The notes below the pieces were generated by a model that did not search any database, was not told the DNA's origin, and saw nothing but the letters and a program-made list of their open reading frames with translations. 58,072 nucleotides of DNA from an uncultured Candidatus Actinomarina sp. (GTDB lineage Bacteria; Actinomycetota; Acidimicrobiia; Actinomarinales; Actinomarinaceae), in the NCBI GenBank assembly GCA_902565645.1, contig CACFFJ010000005.1:1-58072 (forward strand). The letters run 5' to 3'. Both the position numbers and the translations under genes were made by a program. Every line of letters begins with the position of its first letter. The stretch's first letter is position 1. Positions 22,325 to 53,415 of the stretch are shown piece by piece.

Positions 22325-23296
22325 ATGATTAAAAATTTATCACCTTCAAGGGCTTCACAGTTTAAAACATGTCCAAAACAATATAAATTTGCAAATGTTG
22401 ACAAAATTATTGAACCAACAAATGAAGTTCAAGCAAAAGGGACTACAGTTCATCAAGCTCTTGAAGATCTATATGAGTTACCAAAAGAAGAAAGAAGTTC
22501 CGAGAATTTATACAATTTATTTAGAAATGCTTGGACAAAAGTAAGAGGTAACGATGAACATGTAGATCTATTTGACACAATTGAAGAAGAGAAAGAATGG
22601 GGTTTAGATGCATTAAATTTGTTAGCAAATTATTTAACTTTAGAAAATCCAAAGGAAATAGAACCTATGGAAAAAGAGAGATGGGTGCGAGGTTCTATAG
22701 ACGATTTAAATCTTAGAGGAATTTTAGACAGAATGGATAGAGACAAGGATGGAAACTTAATAATTATCGATTATAAATCAGGTAAAGCCCCATCAGCTAA
22801 ATATAAAGAACCAAGATTCTTTGCACTTAAGTTATATGCATTACTAATTAAAGATGAACTTGGTGAAATGCCTAAAGAACTTAAATTAATTTATTTACAG
22901 AATTCAACAATCCATACTTTACAAATCGATGAAGATATTTTAAATAAAGCAAAAGAAGAAATATTGGATATCTGGAACAATATTAAAAATGCTTATGAAA
23001 ATAATCAGTTCCCAGCAACAAAAAATACACTTTGTGATTGGTGTTACTATAAACCAATTTGCCCGGAATTCAATGATTCAGCGCCTGATACTGATGATCT
23101 ACAAAATATAAATATTGAGATAGAGGATTTAGAAAAGAATATAGAAGCAGTAACAATGTTTGAAAATCCTGATGATATCCCAGATGAAAGTCCTATTAAA
23201 AAAATTGATATGGAGTCTACTAATGAGCAACTTAAAAATTTAAAAGACAAAAAACAATCAATAATAAATGAAATTGAGAAAATTTTAAGGAAATAA
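22325..23296 (+). CDS. RecB-family PD-(D/E)XK exonuclease with four Cys (probable Fe-S) and acidic/coiled-coil tail
   Basis: LSPS..QFKTCP, GTTVH, RGILDRMD, IIDYKSG, CDWCYYKPIC. Confidence 0.88.
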   Translation: MIKNLSPSRASQFKTCPKQYKFANVDKIIEPTNEVQAKGTTVHQALEDLYELPKEERSSENLYNLFRNAWTKVRGNDEHVDLFDTIEEEKEWGLDALNLLANYLTLENPKEIEPMEKERWVRGSIDDLNLRGILDRMDRDKDGNLIIIDYKSGKAPSAKYKEPRFFALKLYALLIKDELGEMPKELKLIYLQNSTIHTLQIDEDILNKAKEEILDIWNNIKNAYENNQFPATKNTLCDWCYYKPICPEFNDSAPDTDDLQNINIEIEDLEKNIEAVTMFENPDDIPDESPIKKIDMESTNEQLKNLKDKKQSIINEIEKILRK

Positions 23297-24547
23297 TCCT
23301 CTAGTTAACTTAGCTGCTGCTACTCGTTTTATGCCTTTAATAAGAGAAGCAGTCCTTAGATCACATTTATTTTTTTCAGCTATAACCCAAATTTCTTCAA
23401 AGGAGCTAGTTAAAACATCAATCAATTTTTCATAGAGCTCCTTTTCCTTCCAGAGATAATTTTGTGTGTTTTGTACCCATTCAAAATAACTACCTGTAAC
23501 ACCACCAGCATTAGCAAGAATATCCGGAATAATTAAGATATCGTTATCTCTTAAAATTTTGTCAGCATTTAATGTTGTCGGAGAGTTTGCACCTTCGACT
23601 ATAACCCTGGCTTTTATTTTTTGTGCATTACTTGAAGTTATCACACCACCAACAGCTGCTGGAATAAGTACATCACATTCTAATTCTAGAATTTCTGAAT
23701 CAAGAGGATCACCTCCTGGAAAACCATCTACCGTGTTCTCTTTAGCTATATGCTTAAATAATTCAGGAATGTTTAAACCTTTTTCGTTATACACGCCACC
23801 TTTTAGATCATTAACAGCTATGACTTTTGCTCCCTCTTCATAAGATGCTAAAGCAGCATATCTTCCGACATTTCCGAAGCCTTGAACGACTACTTTAGAA
23901 TCTGAATATTTTTTGTTATATTTATCCATTGCAGCTTTTGCAATAGCTACAGCTCCTCTGCCTGTAGCCTCTCTTCTAGTTATTGAGCCTCCTAAAGAAG
24001 CTGGTTTTCCTGTAACAATGCCTGGTTGTGGTGAACCTACAAAGTTGCTATATGTATCCATAATCCATGCCATTGTTTGTTCGTCAGTTCCTAAATCAGG
24101 AGCTGGAATATCTTTATCTACACCTATTACAGGTAATAATTCTGCGGTAAACCTTCTTGTAACTCTTTGCTTTTCAGCTCGCGATAGAGGTCTTGGATCG
24201 ATAGCTACCCCACCTTTTGCTCCTCCATAAGGTAAACCTACAATTGCAGACTTCCATGACATCAAAATTGCGAGAGCTGTAACTTCTCCAAGATTCACAT
24301 CCGGAGCATACCTAATTCCACCTTTCGTTGGTCCCATTGATAGAACATGCTGTACCCTATAACCGATAACAGTTTCTACTTCTTCATACTCATCTCTTCT
24401 AAATGGAAAAGTAACAGTTAAAGCTCTTTGTGGTAATTTCAATCTTTCTTTAATATTTGGATCAAGATTAATAAATTCAGCTACTTCATCATATTGACGA
24501 ATTACTTCATTGTACATATGTGAAGCGAAGATATCCCCATTTGTCAT
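23285..24547 (-). CDS. gdhA: Glu/Leu/Phe/Val dehydrogenase (probable glutamate dehydrogenase)
   Basis: GPTKGGIRY, PYGGAKGG, DIPAPD, QGFGNVG, NAGGVTGSYFEW. Confidence 0.92.
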   Translation of the reverse strand: MTNGDIFASHMYNEVIRQYDEVAEFINLDPNIKERLKLPQRALTVTFPFRRDEYEEVETVIGYRVQHVLSMGPTKGGIRYAPDVNLGEVTALAILMSWKSAIVGLPYGGAKGGVAIDPRPLSRAEKQRVTRRFTAELLPVIGVDKDIPAPDLGTDEQTMAWIMDTYSNFVGSPQPGIVTGKPASLGGSITRREATGRGAVAIAKAAMDKYNKKYSDSKVVVQGFGNVGRYAALASYEEGAKVIAVNDLKGGVYNEKGLNIPELFKHIAKENTVDGFPGGDPLDSEILELECDVLIPAAVGGVITSSNAQKIKARVIVEGANSPTTLNADKILRDNDILIIPDILANAGGVTGSYFEWVQNTQNYLWKEKELYEKLIDVLTSSFEEIWVIAEKNKCDLRTASLIKGIKRVAAAKLTRGLFP

Positions 24548-24582
24548 TACAAGCCTATATTATTGCTGTTTGGTTTTAGAAG

Positions 24583-24607
24583 CGACATAAAATAATATTT
24601 TTTGTCG
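24583..24607. repeat. 25-bp imperfect palindrome CGACA-N15-TGTCG (candidate operator)
   Basis: cgacataaaataatattttttgtcg: only one mismatched pair around the central base. Confidence 0.7.
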
Positions 24608-24624
24608 TAGATGCTTTCTAATAT
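24602..24624 (+). promoter_or_regulatory. candidate RecA-independent (PafBC-type) DNA-damage promoter
   Basis: TTGTCGtag-atgctttc(8 nt)-TAATAT fits the mycobacterial RecA-NDp pattern tTGTCRgtg-N8-TAnnnT; ATG 8 nt downstream. Confidence 0.55.
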
Positions 24625-24632
24625 TTGAAAGT

Positions 24633-24749
24633 ATGAAATACAAAAATATAGAAGATATCCTAAAAGATAGCGGCCTTGATGCTGTTGTTATATGTTATAA
24701 ACATAACGACCAATGCAGTTGTCATGAAAGCTACAAAGAAGCAGCTTAA
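24633..24749 (+). CDS. unannotated 38-aa Cys/His-rich peptide
   Basis: MKYKNIEDILKDSGLDAVVICYKHNDQCSCHESYKEAA; fills the gap between the promoter and the AGGAG RBS of the next gene. Confidence 0.6.
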   Translation: MKYKNIEDILKDSGLDAVVICYKHNDQCSCHESYKEAA

Positions 24750-24763
24750 ATTTAGGAGAAAAT

Positions 24764-25327
24764 ATGAACAATAAAATCGAAGATGTTCTTGATCTAACAA
24801 GAGAGATCTCAATACAGGATAATGAAGAGATTGATTTTTCAATAACTCCATTTGGTGAAAAATTATTATCTACTGAAGATATTGAATTTCTTTGGGTTGC
24901 AAGAAATGCATCTAGTTCAGTAAAGTCAGCATCTTCAAATATTAAAACTTTTAATGACGAAAAAATTGCTAATAATGTTAATGAAAATGGATCAGTTAGG
25001 TTGGGAGATGAAGTTTTTGTGTATAGCAAATCATACAACTGGAAAGTACAAGAGTTAAGAAATTTTATTAAATGGGTGATAGAGAAATCAAGTGACAATG
25101 AGGAGCTACTTAATTCTTTGTTAGCTATTATAGGTCCTACTTTTGTACCAAAATTAAAAGGACTTGATGCTGTTTCAGCTTCTAGAAATTTGAATCCAGA
25201 AGTTATTAGAGATACTTTCTTATTTAAAGAGTGGAAGGATAAAGCAGATTTAAAAACAATAAATACAAATAACAAATCGGCTCCAAAATGGGCTAAAGAT
25301 TTAGGTCATAAAGAAAGGAAGAAATGA
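24764..25327 (+). CDS. hypothetical protein (no family recognised)
   Basis: 187-aa ORF with AGGAG RBS; ATGA overlap with the Rad52-like gene. Confidence 0.75.
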   Translation: MNNKIEDVLDLTREISIQDNEEIDFSITPFGEKLLSTEDIEFLWVARNASSSVKSASSNIKTFNDEKIANNVNENGSVRLGDEVFVYSKSYNWKVQELRNFIKWVIEKSSDNEELLNSLLAIIGPTFVPKLKGLDAVSASRNLNPEVIRDTFLFKEWKDKADLKTINTNNKSAPKWAKDLGHKERKK

Positions 25328-25752
25328 ATCAATTATACGAACTATCAAGACAATTTCCCGATGAATGGGTTAAAAAAGCTCCTAAAGGAAAGTTTGGAAA
25401 TTATATCCCTCATTCTGTAATTACTCAGAGATTGCTTGAGGTATGCGGTCCATATACTTGGGAAGTTAAAGAATTAATCAGACAAGAAAATGATGGAAAA
25501 GTTGTTGGATGTTTTGGAAAACTAACTGTAGAAATTGATCAAAAATTAGTAACTGTAACATCCATTGGCGATGTAGAACACGACCAAGGAAGTGACGGAA
25601 CAAATGCTAAACATGCTGAATCTGATGCATTTAAAAGATGCGCTATGAAAATAGGTTTAGGTTTACATCTTTGGGCTGGTGAAGAATACTATTTAGATAA
25701 GAAATTAAATGATGATAAAAGTAAGAAGAATCTAAAACTTAAATCAGCCTAA
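25324..25752 (+). CDS. Rad52/Sak-like single-strand annealing protein (core domain only)
   Basis: YI...VITQRLLEVCG..W, AKHAESDAFKRCAMKIGLGLHLW matches the Rad52/22 core (K.A.SDA.KRA...G.G..L). Confidence 0.82.
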   Translation: MNQLYELSRQFPDEWVKKAPKGKFGNYIPHSVITQRLLEVCGPYTWEVKELIRQENDGKVVGCFGKLTVEIDQKLVTVTSIGDVEHDQGSDGTNAKHAESDAFKRCAMKIGLGLHLWAGEEYYLDKKLNDDKSKKNLKLKSA

Positions 25753-52480: not shown

Positions 52481-53415
52481 TCTACAAACTCCTCTTTACA
52501 CATTTCCAGTGTTTGACATTCAAAATTAAAATTCTCTTTTAATAGTTTTTCTGGAATTATTCTCATACTAGTAAGTCCTAAACTTTCTCCTAATTCCCAT
52601 CCTATTGCTATCTTCATTAAAATTGGTGGCAATGGTGGAAAAAAATATTTTTTATTCATAATTTTCGCAATAATTCTTGAAAAATCTTTTTGTTTTAATG
52701 GTTCTGGTGATACAAAATTAATAGGACCTTCAAGATTTTTATTTTCTAAGCAAAAAATATAAGCATTCACAACATCCTCTATTGAAATCCATGAAAAATA
52801 TTGATTGCCTTTCCCGATTGGACTACTGATATTCAATTTAGATACAAGAGTAAAAATATCTGTTGCTACATTTCCTTTTCCTAAAATAATACCTTTTCTC
52901 GCATTAACTACTCTAACTCCATGTTTCTTTATTTCTAATAATGGATCCTCCCAAGCTTCTTCAACTACAAGCTGCTCAAATGATCCTCTATTGTATTGAG
53001 TTTTTTCAGTTATAACTTCATCACCATGTTCACCATAAATGCCTATACCTGAAGCGGAGATGAATATTTTTGGAAATTTATCTAGATTAGCATAAGTATC
53101 TACAAATAAATCTGCTGCCCACTTTCTAGACCAGTAAATTCTTGATTTTCTTTCTTTGTTCCACCTTCCTCCAGCAAAAGGTAGGAAGCCAAAAATATCT
53201 TTTGGTGCAATTGATTCTCCTGCTAAATGAATCACAGCGTCAAGATTTTTAAATTGTTCAATATCAATCTCTTGTTTTAATGGGCTCCAATATATTTCAT
53301 CTTCATTTAATACTTCTCTCCGAACAAATTTTTTTACTTCGTATCCTGATTCAGTTAATTTCTTAGTAAGCTTTCTTCCAATAAAACCACTTGCGCCTGT
53401 TACGCCTATCTTCAT
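52477..53415 (-). CDS. TIGR01777 family NAD-dependent epimerase/dehydratase
   Basis: TGASGFIG, HLAGESI, SASGIG.YG, G.G.QYFSWI. Confidence 0.9.
   Translation of the reverse strand: MKIGVTGASGFIGRKLTKKLTESGYEVKKFVRREVLNEDEIYWSPLKQEIDIEQFKNLDAVIHLAGESIAPKDIFGFLPFAGGRWNKERKSRIYWSRKWAADLFVDTYANLDKFPKIFISASGIGIYGEHGDEVITEKTQYNRGSFEQLVVEEAWEDPLLEIKKHGVRVVNARKGIILGKGNVATDIFTLVSKLNISSPIGKGNQYFSWISIEDVVNAYIFCLENKNLEGPINFVSPEPLKQKDFSRIIAKIMNKKYFFPPLPPILMKIAIGWELGESLGLTSMRIIPEKLLKENFNFECQTLEMCKEEFVD

What the first reader, a model, noticed from the sequence alone, without database searches (positions are those of the whole stretch)
24583..25752. Candidate DNA-damage-inducible, phage-derived annealase operon (peptide + orphan + Rad52/Sak-like SSAP)
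Seen: three tightly coupled + strand ORFs, namely a 38-aa Cys/His peptide, a 187-aa orphan with AGGAG RBS and a 142-aa minimal Rad52/Sak-like core with ATGA overlap. They sit between gdhA and dtd with no integrase or other phage genes. Known: Rad52-like SSAPs in bacteria are mostly phage recombinases (Sak) or radiation-response proteins (Deinococcus DdrA). Inference: a domesticated RecA-independent single-strand annealing or end-protection module under damage control, useful in UV-exposed surface water. The orphan (helical N-half, then SVRLGDEVFVYSK) could be a Gam/Gp157-like DNA-end-binding partner, but this is speculative.
Basis: partly seen in the sequence, partly recalled or inferred. Interest (0 to 1): 0.85.

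Follow-up and report, generated by a model that had tools for sequence, protein, structure and literature searches.

The report
Damage-regulated phage-derived annealase operon
A tiny marine actinobacterium keeps, as a core gene set, a three-gene operon of phage origin built around a Rad52-type DNA-annealing protein, apparently switched on by DNA damage, in a lineage where the usual bacterial RecF, RecO and RecR repair helpers were not found.

Summary
The three + strand ORFs are real: 38 aa (24633-24749), 187 aa (24764-25327) and 142 aa (25324-25752), with an AGGAG site and an ATGA overlap. The 142-aa protein is a Rad52-family annealase: Pfam PF04098 is over its cut-off, and Foldseek's best hits are RAD52, Mgm101 and phage Sak.

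The operon is a syntenic core feature of the order that public records label Ca. Actinomarinales. The annealase is in 58 of 65 genomes. The peptide and a promoter motif are in 55 of 55 evaluable loci.

The "orphan" is not an orphan. Its family occurs in marine viral contigs, in 29 of 41 directly upstream of a Rad52-like gene.

The promoter matches the published actinobacterial PafBC (RecA-NDp) damage motif. Within the genus the same motif precedes rmuC, a Y-family polymerase gene and the gene divergent from lexA.

New here: RecF, RecO and RecR were found in 0 of 25 genus genomes but in 16 of 16 other Acidimicrobiia, the inverse of the annealase.

Best reading: a domesticated phage recombination cassette serving as damage-induced annealing or mediator machinery. 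Induction, annealing and RecFOR replacement are inferred, not shown.

The parts
24603..24624 (+). PafBC-type (RecA-NDp) promoter motif, TGTCGT-N10-TAATAT. The tGTC element is at 24603-24606 and the -10 hexamer at 24619-24624, 8 nt before the peptide's ATG, which predicts a leaderless mRNA.
   Evidence: The sequence is. It matches the published consensus tGTCgg(N10)tA(N3)T (PMC8635444, passage) and tTGTCRgtg-8nt-TannnT (PMC5656591, passage). It is present in 55 of 55 evaluable orthologous loci, with the -10 ending 6-8 nt before the ATG. An RNA-library contig of run X2 begins exactly at 24633 (a weak hint only).
24633..24749 (+). 38-aa Cys/His peptide, first cistron. Invariant M1, K2, G14, C21, H24, D26, C28, C30, H31, A37 and A38, that is C-x2-H-x-D-x-C-x-C-H and a C-terminal [E/K/D]-A-A. 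Putative zinc knuckle; function unknown.
   Evidence: It is exactly 38 codons long in 55 of 55 loci (the regex used to find it required the C/H/D pattern). dN/dS is about 0.42. It was not seen in 106 non-Actinomarinales loci and occurs once in G000. There was 1 marginal hit in 400 other Actinomycetota genomes.
24754..24758 (+). Shine-Dalgarno AGGAG for the second cistron.
   Evidence: AGGAG or GGAG is present at the same place in all 13 loci printed; the other-genus locus L034 reads AGGAAG.
24764..25327 (+). 187-aa accessory protein of an unnamed family (the 'orphan'). Conserved blocks are G-x-[VI]-[RK]-[LI]-[GS]-[DN]-x-V-F, FVPKL[KR]GLDA, RDTF and APxWAxxLxxxER[KR]K. Likely partner of the annealase.
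   Evidence: There is no Pfam, PHROG, NCBIfam or PADLOC hit. It is always adjacent to the Rad52-like gene in the genus. The family has 86 representatives at E <= 1e-3. In viral contigs it lies directly upstream of a Rad52-like gene in 29 of 41 loci, and in L198 between a phrog_284 exonuclease and the annealase.
25324..25752 (+). 142-aa minimal Rad52-family single-strand annealing protein, translationally coupled to the gene before it (ATGA overlap).
   Evidence: PF04098 at 28.1 bits against a 20.3 cut-off; phrog_3290 at 1.4e-14. The model core, residues 30-110, has the pattern alpha, three beta strands, alpha. Foldseek's best hits are human RAD52, Mgm101 and phage 80alpha Sak (E 3e-4 to 5e-3). 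It is 77-96% identical across 58 of 65 genomes of the order.
22325..23296 (+). Stand-alone Cas4-like PD-(D/E)XK nuclease (323 aa), two genes upstream and a separate transcription unit. A possible end-resection partner; the link is not shown.
   Evidence: PF12705 at 2.3e-34; phrog_69 exonuclease at 3e-29. It has the same position in 12 of 12 relatives. In the 5 genomes tested it is one of only two kinds of reading frame with a PDDEXK_1 match over the cut-off; they are about 330 and about 490 aa long, and none is of RecB or AddB size.

Best explanation
This is a domesticated phage recombination cassette. It consists of an accessory protein of an unnamed family and a minimal Rad52-family single-strand annealing protein (SSAP). 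The ancestor of the Ca. Actinomarinales lineage acquired it once, and it has been inherited vertically at a fixed chromosomal site ever since. In this lineage a 38-aa Cys/His (probably zinc-binding) peptide was placed in front of it. All three genes are read from one leaderless mRNA, driven by a PafBC-type (RecA-NDp) promoter. It therefore belongs to the small DNA-damage regulon of these cells, together with rmuC, a Y-family translesion polymerase and the gene divergent from lexA.

Proposed mechanism. After damage the SSAP forms oligomers on single-stranded DNA, helped or targeted by the accessory protein. It anneals complementary strands at gaps and resected breaks, and may help RecA onto SSB-coated DNA. 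That is the job RecO and RecR do in other bacteria and Rad52 does in yeast. These genomes keep RecA, LexA and SSB, but no RecF, RecO or RecR and no RecB/AddB-sized nuclease were found in them.

Shown here: the ORFs; Rad52-family membership; conservation and synteny; phage relatives and the recurrent gene pair; the promoter motif and its sharing with other repair genes; the failure to detect RecFOR; presence in RNA libraries.

Inferred: damage induction, the leaderless start, annealing activity, a physical partnership between the two proteins, zinc binding, and replacement of RecFOR.

My odds for the sub-claims: Rad52-family SSAP 0.9; vertically inherited core operon 0.95; member of a PafBC-type damage regulon 0.75; functional stand-in for RecFOR 0.45.
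For: SSAP identity. PF04098 scores over its gathering cut-off and phrog_3290 gives 1.4e-14. Foldseek's best hits are RAD52, Mgm101 and Sak. In alignment A5 (20 proteins) the helix motif SDAFKRCAM-x-GLGLHLW holds the invariant residues S100, D101, K104, R105, M108, G111, G113, L114, H115 and W117.

Core and vertical. The SSAP is in 58 of 65 genomes of the order, and in 11 of 12 that are at least 90% complete, at 77-96% identity. Gene order is the same in 12 of 12 relatives, including the second genus. In the SSAP tree the Actinomarinales rows form one clade (SH-aLRT 97) among viral and MAG rows (quick tree). GC shows no anomaly.

Phage origin. At least 183 SSAP relatives lie in IMG/VR contigs at 36-54% identity. 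Outside the order, genome records give only 23 scattered hits at 54% identity or less. No SSAP match was found in 16 of 16 other Acidimicrobiia. The accessory gene lies directly upstream of a Rad52-like gene in 53 of 72 non-chromosomal loci, 29 of the 41 viral ones. In L198 the order is phrog_284 exonuclease, accessory gene, SSAP, then an SSB-like gene.

Damage regulon. The motif TGTC-N12-TAnnnT matches the published PafBC consensus. It is present in 55 of 55 orthologous loci. In G000, only 4 intergenic copies lie within 30 nt of a start codon: this operon, rmuC (PF02646 1e-50), a Y-family polymerase gene (PF00817 6e-39) and a LysM gene divergent from lexA. Across the genus the motif is kept at rmuC in 26 of 26 evaluable loci, at the polymerase gene in 30 of 30, and at the LysM gene in 23 of 23. 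A WYL-domain protein with an adjacent, overlapping partner gene is present.

RecFOR. RecO_N 0 of 25 against 16 of 16; recR 0 of 25 against 16 of 16; recF 0 of 25 against 16 of 16 (genus against other families of the class). recR was found in 0 of 65 genomes of the order and TIGR00613 recO in 0 of 5 at E <= 1. RecA is in 5 of 5 and LexA in 5 of 5.

Expression. Four marine metatranscriptome runs from four studies hold the stretch. One contig (24660-25483) spans parts of all three ORFs, and three others bridge the junction between the accessory gene and the SSAP gene.

Precedent. A lineage without RecFOR in which another annealing protein was proposed to fill the gap (Borrelia ResT), and lambda Orf suppressing recFOR mutants: both from passages of PMC4914115.
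Against: The inverse pattern of RecFOR and the SSAP rests on one lineage, that is, on a single evolutionary event. In a genome of about 1 Mb the loss of RecFOR may simply be part of streamlining.

Deinococcus and Thermus carry a Rad52-family gene and also keep RecO and RecR. A bacterial Rad52-like protein therefore need not replace RecFOR.

A very divergent RecO could escape the profiles used.

Seven of the 65 genomes gave no SSAP match, one of them 90% complete (G075).

No measurement of induction was available. Contigs cannot show transcript ends, strand or level, and DNA can be present in RNA libraries.

The second gene of the putative PafBC pair has no Pfam hit, and the regulator-motif link is carried over from mycobacteria.

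The accessory gene also occurs without any Rad52-like gene in 19 of 72 loci, so it is not an obligate partner.

Both structure models were of low confidence: pLDDT 49.9 and 59.6.

No exonuclease gene is part of the chromosomal operon.
Confidence: 0.55

Rival explanations
1. DdrA-like role only. The Rad52-like protein binds and protects 3' ssDNA ends, or carries out RecA-independent single-strand annealing after breaks. It has no mediator role, and the loss of RecFOR is unrelated.
For: It belongs to the same Pfam family that rings in the Deinococcus and Thermus control genomes. It has a damage-type promoter. The 142-aa core has no C-terminal extension that could carry a RecA- or SSB-binding region. 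That Deinococcus DdrA is damage-induced and protects ends is recalled, not tested here.
Against: This reading does not explain why a roughly 1-Mb genome that keeps RecA would do without any detectable RecA loader. The conserved accessory protein and peptide suggest more than simple end binding.
Confidence: 0.25
2. Recombineering-like gene exchange. The SSAP mainly anneals incoming or displaced single strands at replication forks and drives the very high homologous recombination and cassette swapping reported for this lineage. Repair is secondary.
For: Passages of PMC7771536 report an unusually strong signal of homologous recombination and swapping of small gene cassettes in Ca. Actinomarinales. 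Passages of PMC2896510 state that phage SSAPs pair short and divergent sequences efficiently.
Against: The promoter is shared with a translesion polymerase gene, rmuC and the lexA region, which points to damage rather than uptake. Competence genes were not looked for.
Confidence: 0.1
3. Phage-conflict module. The pair is kept because of interactions with phages, as a decoy, sensor target or exclusion factor, and the accessory protein evolves in an arms race.
For: Identity of the accessory protein to the window's copy is bimodal, 61-87% or 38-45%, while the SSAP stays at 77-96%. Solo phage copies cluster (SH-aLRT 98) with the 173-aa chromosomal type. According to the abstract of PMC11846896 (search listing), phage recombinases are targets of defence systems.
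Against: None of the three proteins hits a PADLOC model. The site is fixed in the core genome rather than in a variable island. The promoter is of the damage-regulon type.
Confidence: 0.07
4. Inert prophage remnant with no host function.
For: The family is typical of phages.
Against: It is in 58 of 65 genomes at 77-96% identity in a highly streamlined genome. All three frames are intact in 55 of 55 loci. There are no phage genes around it. It has a conserved host-type promoter and is present in RNA libraries.
Confidence: 0.03

Closest known systems
Phage Sak / Rad52-family SSAPs (lactococcal ul36 Sak, staphylococcal 80alpha Sak; PHROG 3290)
   Same: It belongs to the same Pfam family, PF04098, and to phrog_3290. 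Solved 80alpha Sak structures are among the Foldseek hits (8pq8, 8qe9). It is a minimal N-terminal annealing core. Its relatives in viral contigs sit in exonuclease-SSAP-SSB modules.
   Different: Here it is a chromosomal, order-wide core gene at a fixed housekeeping site, with no exonuclease or SSB gene in the operon. It is driven by a host damage-type promoter and preceded by a lineage-specific peptide.
Deinococcus-Thermus DdrA (chromosomal bacterial Rad52-family protein)
   Same: It is a cellular, non-prophage Rad52-family gene; PF04098 rings in the D. radiodurans and T. thermophilus control genomes. It appears to be tied to the DNA-damage response. That DdrA is damage-induced is recalled.
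   Different: Those genomes keep RecO and RecR, which were not found in Actinomarinales. The regulatory motif is different (PafBC-type here). DdrA has no conserved accessory gene or leader peptide that I know of (recalled). No direct sequence comparison with DdrA was made.
RecO/RecR (and yeast Rad52) as recombination mediators
   Same: The proposed job is the same: annealing of ssDNA and help for RecA on SSB-coated DNA. Passages of PMC4914115 list Rad52, RecO and UvsY as mediators with shared properties. The phyletic pattern is complementary to RecFOR.
   Different: There is no homology to RecO or RecR. Mediator activity, SSB binding and RecA loading are untested.
Borrelia ResT, and lambda Orf as RecFOR substitutes
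   Same: Both are precedents for an unrelated protein proposed or shown to supply RecFOR functions, in one case in a bacterium without RecFOR (passages of PMC4914115).
   Different: The protein families are different: a telomere resolvase and NinB/Orf. Here the candidate is a Rad52-family SSAP with an accessory protein.
Mycobacterial PafBC / RecA-NDp regulon
   Same: The bipartite motif has the same spacing, tGTC-N12-TAnnnT. A WYL-domain regulator gene with an adjacent partner gene is present. The targets are DNA repair genes.
   Different: The regulon seen here is very small: 4 well-placed sites in a genome that is 75% complete. The -10 element lies 6-8 nt from the start codon at three of the four targets, which implies leaderless mRNAs. 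No SSAP is known to me in the mycobacterial regulon (recalled).

Membership tests
Rad52/Sak superfamily SSAP (Pfam PF04098) | A profile match over the curated threshold | tested here: met
   PF04098 at 28.1 bits against a cut-off of 20.3, E 2.3e-6, residues 6-120. The whole-genome scan gives 26.9 bits, also over the cut-off. phrog_3290 'single strand annealing protein' at 1.4e-14.
Rad52/Sak superfamily SSAP (Pfam PF04098) | The Rad52 N-terminal fold: a three-stranded beta sheet packed on a long helix, with a beta hairpin | tested here: met
   The AF2 model has H30-41, E44-53, E60-71, E74-83 and H93-109, with a core pLDDT of about 65-84. The top Foldseek PDB hits are human RAD52, Mgm101 and 80alpha Sak, with E 3e-4 to 5e-3 and probability 0.99-1.0. 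TM-scores are only 0.36-0.45 and the mean pLDDT is 59.6.
Rad52/Sak superfamily SSAP (Pfam PF04098) | Conserved basic residues of the ssDNA groove on the long helix | tested here: inconclusive
   K104 and R105 in SDAFKRCAM are invariant in alignment A5 of 20 proteins. The stretch aligns weakly with the helix SNALMRCC of Mgm101 (E 1.2). That these residues correspond to human RAD52 K152/R153 is recalled, not computed.
Rad52/Sak superfamily SSAP (Pfam PF04098) | Ring oligomers and ATP-independent annealing of ssDNA | not testable with these tools
   Needs protein work. No homo-oligomer prediction was run.
Lambda Red / RecET-type two-component recombination module (exonuclease + SSAP in one operon) | An exonuclease gene adjacent to and co-oriented with the SSAP gene | tested here: not met
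   The chromosomal operon holds no nuclease gene. The Cas4-like nuclease (22325-23296) is separated from it by a gene on the opposite strand. Phage relatives do have one: phrog_284 in L198, and a protein of about 354 aa alike in sequence to it lies upstream of the SSAP gene in 32 of 99 loci.
PafBC (RecA-NDp) regulon | The bipartite promoter tGTC(gg)-N10-tA-N3-T | tested here: met
   TGTCGT-N10-TAATAT at 24603-24624. The consensus is quoted from passages of PMC8635444 and PMC5656591. The motif is in 55 of 55 orthologous loci and also at rmuC, the Y-family polymerase gene and the lexA-divergent gene.
PafBC (RecA-NDp) regulon | A PafB/PafC heterodimeric WYL regulator is encoded | tested here: inconclusive
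   There is one WYL-domain ORF per genome in 5 of 5 genomes. In G000 it is a 275-aa protein (PF13280 5.6e-10) followed by an overlapping 285-aa gene with no Pfam or NCBIfam hit.
PafBC (RecA-NDp) regulon | Transcription induced by DNA damage | not testable with these tools
   Only contigs from RNA libraries were available. They show presence, not level or induction.
LexA (SOS) regulon | A LexA box GAAC-N4-GTTC in the promoter | tested here: not met
   The best site in each of 56 operon upstream regions has 2-4 mismatches. recA upstream has a perfect box and the lexA region has one with 1 mismatch.
   The window protein has no Pfam or PHROG family at E <= 1 beyond two PHROGs of unknown function at E >= 0.02. 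None of the 38 family members hits any PHROG. The only Pfam hits are RibD_C and Vint, one member each. The fold could not be tested (pLDDT 49.9).
RecO / RecR / RecF (orthologues) | Profile matches anywhere in the genome | tested here: not met
   PF11967 in 0 of 25, TIGR00615 in 0 of 25 and TIGR00611 in 0 of 25 genus genomes, against 16 of 16 other Acidimicrobiia. TIGR00613 in 0 of 5 at E <= 1. recR in 0 of 65 genomes of the order. The controls ring in 9-10 of the 14 known genomes.

The most novel reading that the evidence does not exclude
The whole RecFOR presynaptic pathway has been displaced in a free-living bacterial order by a captured phage cassette: an accessory protein, a Rad52-type annealase and a new zinc-knuckle peptide, wired into the host's PafBC damage regulon. 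These bacteria would then load or bypass RecA in the way eukaryotes do, with Rad52. Their phages in turn carry solo copies of the accessory subunit, closely related to the host's 173-aa type, to commandeer the host annealase. That would explain why the accessory gene falls into two deeply divergent types while the annealase stays conserved.
Probability: 0.3. Interest if true: 0.88.

Novelty: new variant of a known kind. Interest (0 to 1): 0.72.

Why it matters
RecFOR is regarded as the near-universal bacterial route for loading RecA at gaps. A free-living, globally abundant marine lineage that lacks it, yet keeps RecA and a conserved, damage-wired Rad52-type annealase, would be a natural case of non-orthologous displacement of a core repair pathway by a phage gene. 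It would also be a bacterial parallel to eukaryotic Rad52.

The case is directly testable by annealing and RecA-loading assays and by complementation of E. coli recO/recR laboratory mutants.

It also defines an unnamed protein family that recurs next to Rad52-like SSAPs in marine phages, and a 38-aa Cys/His peptide with no relatives found.

It gives the first outline of a PafBC-type damage regulon in Acidimicrobiia with leaderless targets.

A compact SSAP-plus-accessory pair from a low-GC actinobacterium could also interest people who build recombineering tools.

The two Actinomarinales genome papers I could search do not mention Rad52, RecF, RecA, repair or annealing.

Tried and rejected
Structure of the 187-aa protein. 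AF2 with a 13-row alignment gave pLDDT 49.9, too poor for a fold search.

Complex prediction of the SSAP (A5) with the accessory protein (A3) gave 'no answer', score 0.00. This is no evidence either way.

PDB sequence searches with A1, A2 and A5 gave nothing significant. The best hits were Vipp1 at E 0.049 for A1 and Mgm101 at E 1.2 for A5.

ESM Atlas. The accessory protein's best score was 0.79, to unnamed clusters. The peptide scored 0.79 to fragments of GFO_IDH_MocA. This echoes a Pfam hit at E 0.084, but both are within chance.

tblastn of the accessory protein and of a distant relative (P0161) against 50,697 phage records found no match.

The search for related loci with P0150 and P0161 in viral contigs found no confirmed relative. 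The genomic context of the distant, GC-rich family members (P0150-P0206) therefore remains unknown.

My first look from the SSAP side found the accessory gene next to only 2 of 103 non-Actinomarinales SSAP loci. This undercounted, because only the 80 best SSAP matches of viral contigs had been kept. The search from the accessory gene's side corrected it.

The viral and metagenome collections overlap. L198, L297 and L389 are the same 9,432-nt contig. The 72 loci are therefore not independent.

Parts without RNA-contig cover. No contig of the four runs covers 24538-24632, and cover is patchy within 25440-25660.

A search of 400 other Actinomycetota genomes gave 1 weak hit for the accessory family (E 3.5e-4) and 1 for the peptide (E 0.004). 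I read neither as a relative.

The careful SSAP tree did not finish within the time limit. The quick tree is reported.

I considered and rejected a LexA-controlled operon and a defence-system component.

Competence genes, RecN, RuvABC, DprA and Ku/LigD were not searched.


Full report
OBSERVATION. AGGAG lies at 24754-24758, 5 nt before the second ATG, and the second and third genes overlap as ATGA. The flanks are a Glu/Leu/Phe/Val dehydrogenase on the minus strand and D-Tyr-tRNA deacylase on the minus strand. The deacylase gene's stop overlaps the third gene's stop by 4 nt. Other neighbours are an inositol-1-phosphate synthase, an aminotransferase, a PNPOx-like protein, a 3-hydroxyacyl-CoA dehydrogenase and an acyl-CoA dehydrogenase. 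GC stays near 0.30 throughout, and the only tRNA genes in the window lie near 55.8 kb. Nothing looks like a prophage.

THE THIRD GENE. The 142-aa protein matches Pfam Rad52_Rad22 over the curated cut-off (28.1 against 20.3 bits, residues 6-120). It matches Mgm101p weakly and PHROG 3290 'single strand annealing protein' at 1.4e-14. An AF2 model from a shallow alignment is poor at the ends, but its core (residues 30-110, block means 65-84) has a helix, three long strands and a long helix. Foldseek against the PDB returns human RAD52 N-terminal domain, yeast Mgm101 and staphylococcal phage 80alpha Sak as its best hits. E-values run from 3e-4 to 5e-3 and probability is 0.99-1.0, but TM-scores are only 0.36-0.45. 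Across 20 relatives the helix motif SDAFKRCAM-x-GLGLHLW carries most of the invariant residues. I file it as a minimal Rad52-family SSAP. Ring formation and annealing are untested.

CONSERVATION. The window's genome (G000) is 864 kb in 31 contigs and 75% complete. The SSAP is found in 58 of 65 genomes of its order, and in 11 of 12 that are at least 90% complete, at 77-96% identity. The seven genomes without a match are 60-90% complete. Public genome records with the closest copies are titled Candidatus Actinomarina or Actinomarinales. In twelve relatives fetched with flanks, one of them from the second genus, the order of eleven genes around the operon is identical. The 187-aa gene is always directly upstream of the SSAP gene. 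Its identity to the window's copy is bimodal: 61-87% in 12 genomes (a 186-188-aa type) and 38-45% in 11 genomes (a 173-aa type). The SSAP shows no such split.

The peptide ORF is exactly 38 codons long in 55 of 55 evaluable loci of 56 fetched. I located it with the pattern C-x2-H-x-D-x-C-x-C-H, so that pattern is present by construction; that it was found everywhere is the result. M1, K2, G14, C21, H24, D26, C28, C30, H31, A37 and A38 are invariant in a 13-row alignment. dN/dS is about 0.42, and variability by codon position runs 3 > 1 > 2. I take it to be a real small protein, probably a zinc knuckle. I found no relatives of it: none in 106 non-Actinomarinales loci, one marginal hit in 400 other Actinomycetota genomes, and nothing useful in the Atlas.

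THE 'ORPHAN' HAS A FAMILY, AND THE FAMILY LIVES IN PHAGES. No Pfam, PHROG, NCBIfam or PADLOC model matches it. An exhaustive profile search found 86 representative proteins at E <= 1e-3, among them full-length proteins of about 160-230 aa far from Actinomarina. None of 38 aligned members hits a named family. Scans with a narrower alignment found 41 viral-contig loci, and 80 metagenome loci were kept.

I examined 72 loci whose copy is at most 46% identical to the window's: 41 viral and 31 from metagenomes. The two collections overlap. In 53 of them a Rad52-like ORF begins within 100 nt of the end of the accessory ORF on the same strand (29 of the 41 viral loci). Six of the metagenome loci look like Actinomarinales chromosome. 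In 19 loci no Rad52-like gene is present in the locus. In viral contig L198 the order is phrog_284 exonuclease (6.7e-52), accessory gene, Rad52-like SSAP, then an SSB-like protein, with lysis and tail genes nearby. In L139 the pair sits in a replication module. From the SSAP side, the commonest upstream neighbour is a protein of about 354 aa alike in sequence to the L198 exonuclease (32 of 99 loci).

The SSAP itself has at least 183 relatives in IMG/VR at 36-54% identity. Outside the order, genome records hold only 23 scattered relatives at 54% identity or less. It was not found in 16 of 16 other Acidimicrobiia. In a quick tree the Actinomarinales rows form one clade (SH-aLRT 97) among viral and MAG rows. 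The simplest history is one capture of a phage accessory-plus-SSAP pair at the base of the order. The trees are unrooted, so the direction of transfer is an inference.

In the accessory-protein tree the 'solo' phage copies (GC 0.32-0.36, next to DNA methylase genes and small phage ORFs) cluster with the 173-aa chromosomal type (SH-aLRT 98). The pair-type phage copies form a separate clade. This suggests later traffic of this gene between the hosts and their phages.

REGULATION. The 85-nt spacer upstream of the peptide holds TGTCGT-N10-TAATAT (24603-24624). This fits the PafBC (RecA-NDp) consensus as printed in two papers: tGTCgg(N10)tA(N3)T (PMC8635444, passage) and tTGTCRgtg-8nt-TannnT (PMC5656591, passage). 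The spacing is too short for a -35/-10 promoter. The motif is present in 55 of 55 orthologous loci, although the rest of the spacer is poorly conserved. Its -10 ends 6-8 nt before the ATG, which predicts a leaderless mRNA.

In G000 the loose pattern TGTC-N12-TAnnnT occurs 101 times, 14 of them in intergenic DNA (about 8 expected). Only four of these lie within 30 nt of a start codon. They precede this operon, rmuC (PF02646 1e-50), a Y-family polymerase gene (PF00817 6.2e-39) and a LysM gene divergent from lexA. Across 30 further genomes of the genus the motif is kept at rmuC in 26 of 26 evaluable loci (of 30; 3 had no tblastn hit and 1 lay at a contig end), at the polymerase gene in 30 of 30, and at the LysM gene in 23 of 23 evaluable loci (of 27).

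The genomes encode LexA (5 of 5) and one WYL-domain protein (5 of 5). The WYL gene is followed by an overlapping gene of similar size that has no family hit. This is a PafB/PafC-like arrangement, but not a proven one. recA has a perfect LexA box. The operon has none: the best sites in 56 upstream regions have 2-4 mismatches. I therefore read the operon as a member of a small, conserved, PafBC-type damage regulon. This is comparative inference; induction was not measured.

RNA. Twenty runs on record as RNA hold part of the stretch. I laid four marine metatranscriptome runs from four studies on it. All four are kept as contigs, which cannot show strand, ends or level, and DNA can be present in such libraries. 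One contig (X1, 824 nt) covers 24660-25483 and so parts of all three ORFs. Contigs of X2, X3 and X4 bridge the junction between the accessory gene and the SSAP gene. One X2 contig begins exactly at 24633, the predicted leaderless start. I count that as a weak hint only.

WHAT IS MISSING FROM THE GENOME. In the same set of 41 genomes, RecO_N, recR and recF profiles match 0 of 25 genomes of the genus. They match 16 of 16 genomes from eleven other families of the class, all over the curated cut-offs. The SSAP shows the inverse pattern, 23 of 25 against 0 of 16. recR is found in 0 of 65 genomes of the order, including 12 that are at least 90% complete and one single-contig genome of 1.01 Mb. TIGR00613 recO gives nothing even at E <= 1 in five genomes. 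RecA is present in 5 of 5. SSB was found in 4 of 5 genomes, over the cut-off in 3. The only reading frames with a PDDEXK_1 match over the cut-off are about 330 aa long (the Cas4-like nuclease two genes upstream of the operon, at the same place in 12 of 12 relatives) and about 490 aa long. None is of RecB, AddB or AdnAB size. So RecA is there, but neither canonical loader was detected.

The caveats matter. This is a single lineage, and kin are not independent. Streamlined genomes lose many genes. A very divergent RecO could be missed. Deinococcus and Thermus carry a Rad52-family gene and RecO and RecR together.

MECHANISM I COMMIT TO (0.55 overall). On DNA damage, the WYL regulator activates the leaderless operon. 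The SSAP oligomerises on ssDNA at daughter-strand gaps or at breaks resected by a nuclease; the neighbouring Cas4-like enzyme is the obvious candidate. There it anneals complementary strands, and perhaps hands SSB-coated ssDNA to RecA. The accessory protein recurs next to Rad52-like SSAPs in phages and diverges much faster than the SSAP. It would be the adaptor that targets or loads the SSAP. The peptide's role is open; a small zinc-binding modulator is my guess.

Passages of PMC4914115 supply the conceptual precedent. [quoted passage not shown]

The rivals, with my odds: DdrA-like end protection or RecA-independent annealing only (0.25), a recombineering-like role in gene exchange (0.10), a phage-conflict role (0.07), and an inert remnant (0.03).

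COMPARISON AND NOVELTY. As a protein, the SSAP is a new member of a known family. As a system, it differs from phage Sak modules: it is chromosomal and core, has no exonuclease or SSB gene in the operon, and has a host damage promoter and an added peptide. It also differs from DdrA: the regulator is different, it has an accessory partner, and RecFOR was not found.

I found no mention of this in print. A full-text search for Actinomarina or Actinomarinales with recombination or RecO led to two genome papers. In both, the words Rad52, RecF, RecA, repair and annealing occur 0 times (passages only). A search on Rad52-like, RecFOR, SSAP and genome reduction (a listing of 15 of 67 papers) showed no such case. 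Supplementary tables were closed and may list gene absences. I rate it a new variant of a known kind, with interest 0.72.

LIMITS. Several properties cited for comparison are recalled and were not tested here: DdrA biology, the DNA-binding residues of human RAD52, and the mycobacterial gene divergent from lexA being damage-induced.

Noticed in passing
window 22325-23296 (+): A stand-alone Cas4-like PD-(D/E)XK nuclease (PF12705 2.3e-34; Cas4 and AddB-type profiles below their cut-offs). It is conserved two genes upstream of the operon in 12 of 12 relatives. It is one of only two kinds of reading frame with a PDDEXK_1 match over the cut-off in five genomes. It could be the resection nuclease of this lineage.
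   Followed up: partly
G000:C2:7165-7186 (-), G000:C15:7035-7056 (+), G000:C8:12591-12612 (+); loci L209-L295: The same tGTC-N12-TAnnnT motif precedes rmuC, a Y-family polymerase gene (divergent from a LexA-like S24 peptidase gene) and a LysM gene divergent from lexA. It is conserved across the genus: 26 of 26, 30 of 30 and 23 of 23 evaluable loci. At rmuC and the LysM gene the -10 lies 6 nt from the ATG, which implies leaderless mRNAs. This outlines a minimal PafBC-type regulon.
   Followed up: yes
G000:C8:7850-7950 (upstream of recA): recA carries a perfect LexA box, TAGAACAAATGTTCTA. About 20 nt downstream there is a near-PafBC element, TGTCAT-N10-TTTAAT, whose -10 does not fit TAnnnT. recA may have dual control, as in mycobacteria (the latter is recalled).
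   Followed up: no
loci L306-L333, L400-L414 (viral and metagenome contigs): Nineteen loci carry a 'solo' copy of the accessory gene with no Rad52-like gene. These copies lie among DNA methylase genes and small phage ORFs, at GC 0.32-0.36. In the tree they cluster (SH-aLRT 98) with the 173-aa chromosomal type of some Actinomarina genomes. This suggests exchange of the gene between host and phage, and it may explain the bimodal divergence of the chromosomal gene.
   Followed up: partly
G020:C30:9057-9446 and 52917-53306; G020:C36:20808-21161 (loci L037-L039, L121): One genome bin of the genus holds extra, distant Rad52-like genes (40-44% identity) in longer reading frames. On contig C30 the same gene appears twice, 43,860 nt apart. 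This is probably a phage genome assembled past one unit length and binned with the host.
   Followed up: no
L041 (G000:C7:31417-34590): The WYL-domain gene (275 aa) and its overlapping 285-aa neighbour lie directly downstream of a gene that looks like a SAM-dependent tRNA methyltransferase. I judged this by eye from its GxGxG motif; it was not scanned. I did not look for proteasome or Pup genes.
   Followed up: no
window 24633-24749: The peptide shows a weak likeness to the segment 'D-A-V-x-I-x-x-x-x-x-x-H' of Gfo/Idh/MocA oxidoreductases (Pfam E 0.084; Atlas 0.79). Both values are within chance. If the likeness were real, the peptide could descend from a gene fragment.
   Followed up: partly
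proteins P0150-P0206: These are distant, full-length relatives of the accessory protein, with compositions that suggest high-GC organisms. They share G-x-[VI]-R-[LF]-G-D, V-R-x-T-x-L-R, D-T-F and A-P-K-[WY]-A-x-x-[LM]-x-x-G-E-R. Their genomic context could not be obtained.
   Followed up: partly
window 24300-24547 (-): RNA-library contigs over the dehydrogenase gene stop at 24530-24537 in three runs from three studies, 10-17 nt short of its start codon at 24547. No contig crosses the divergent promoter spacer. I recorded this only as an observation.
   Followed up: no
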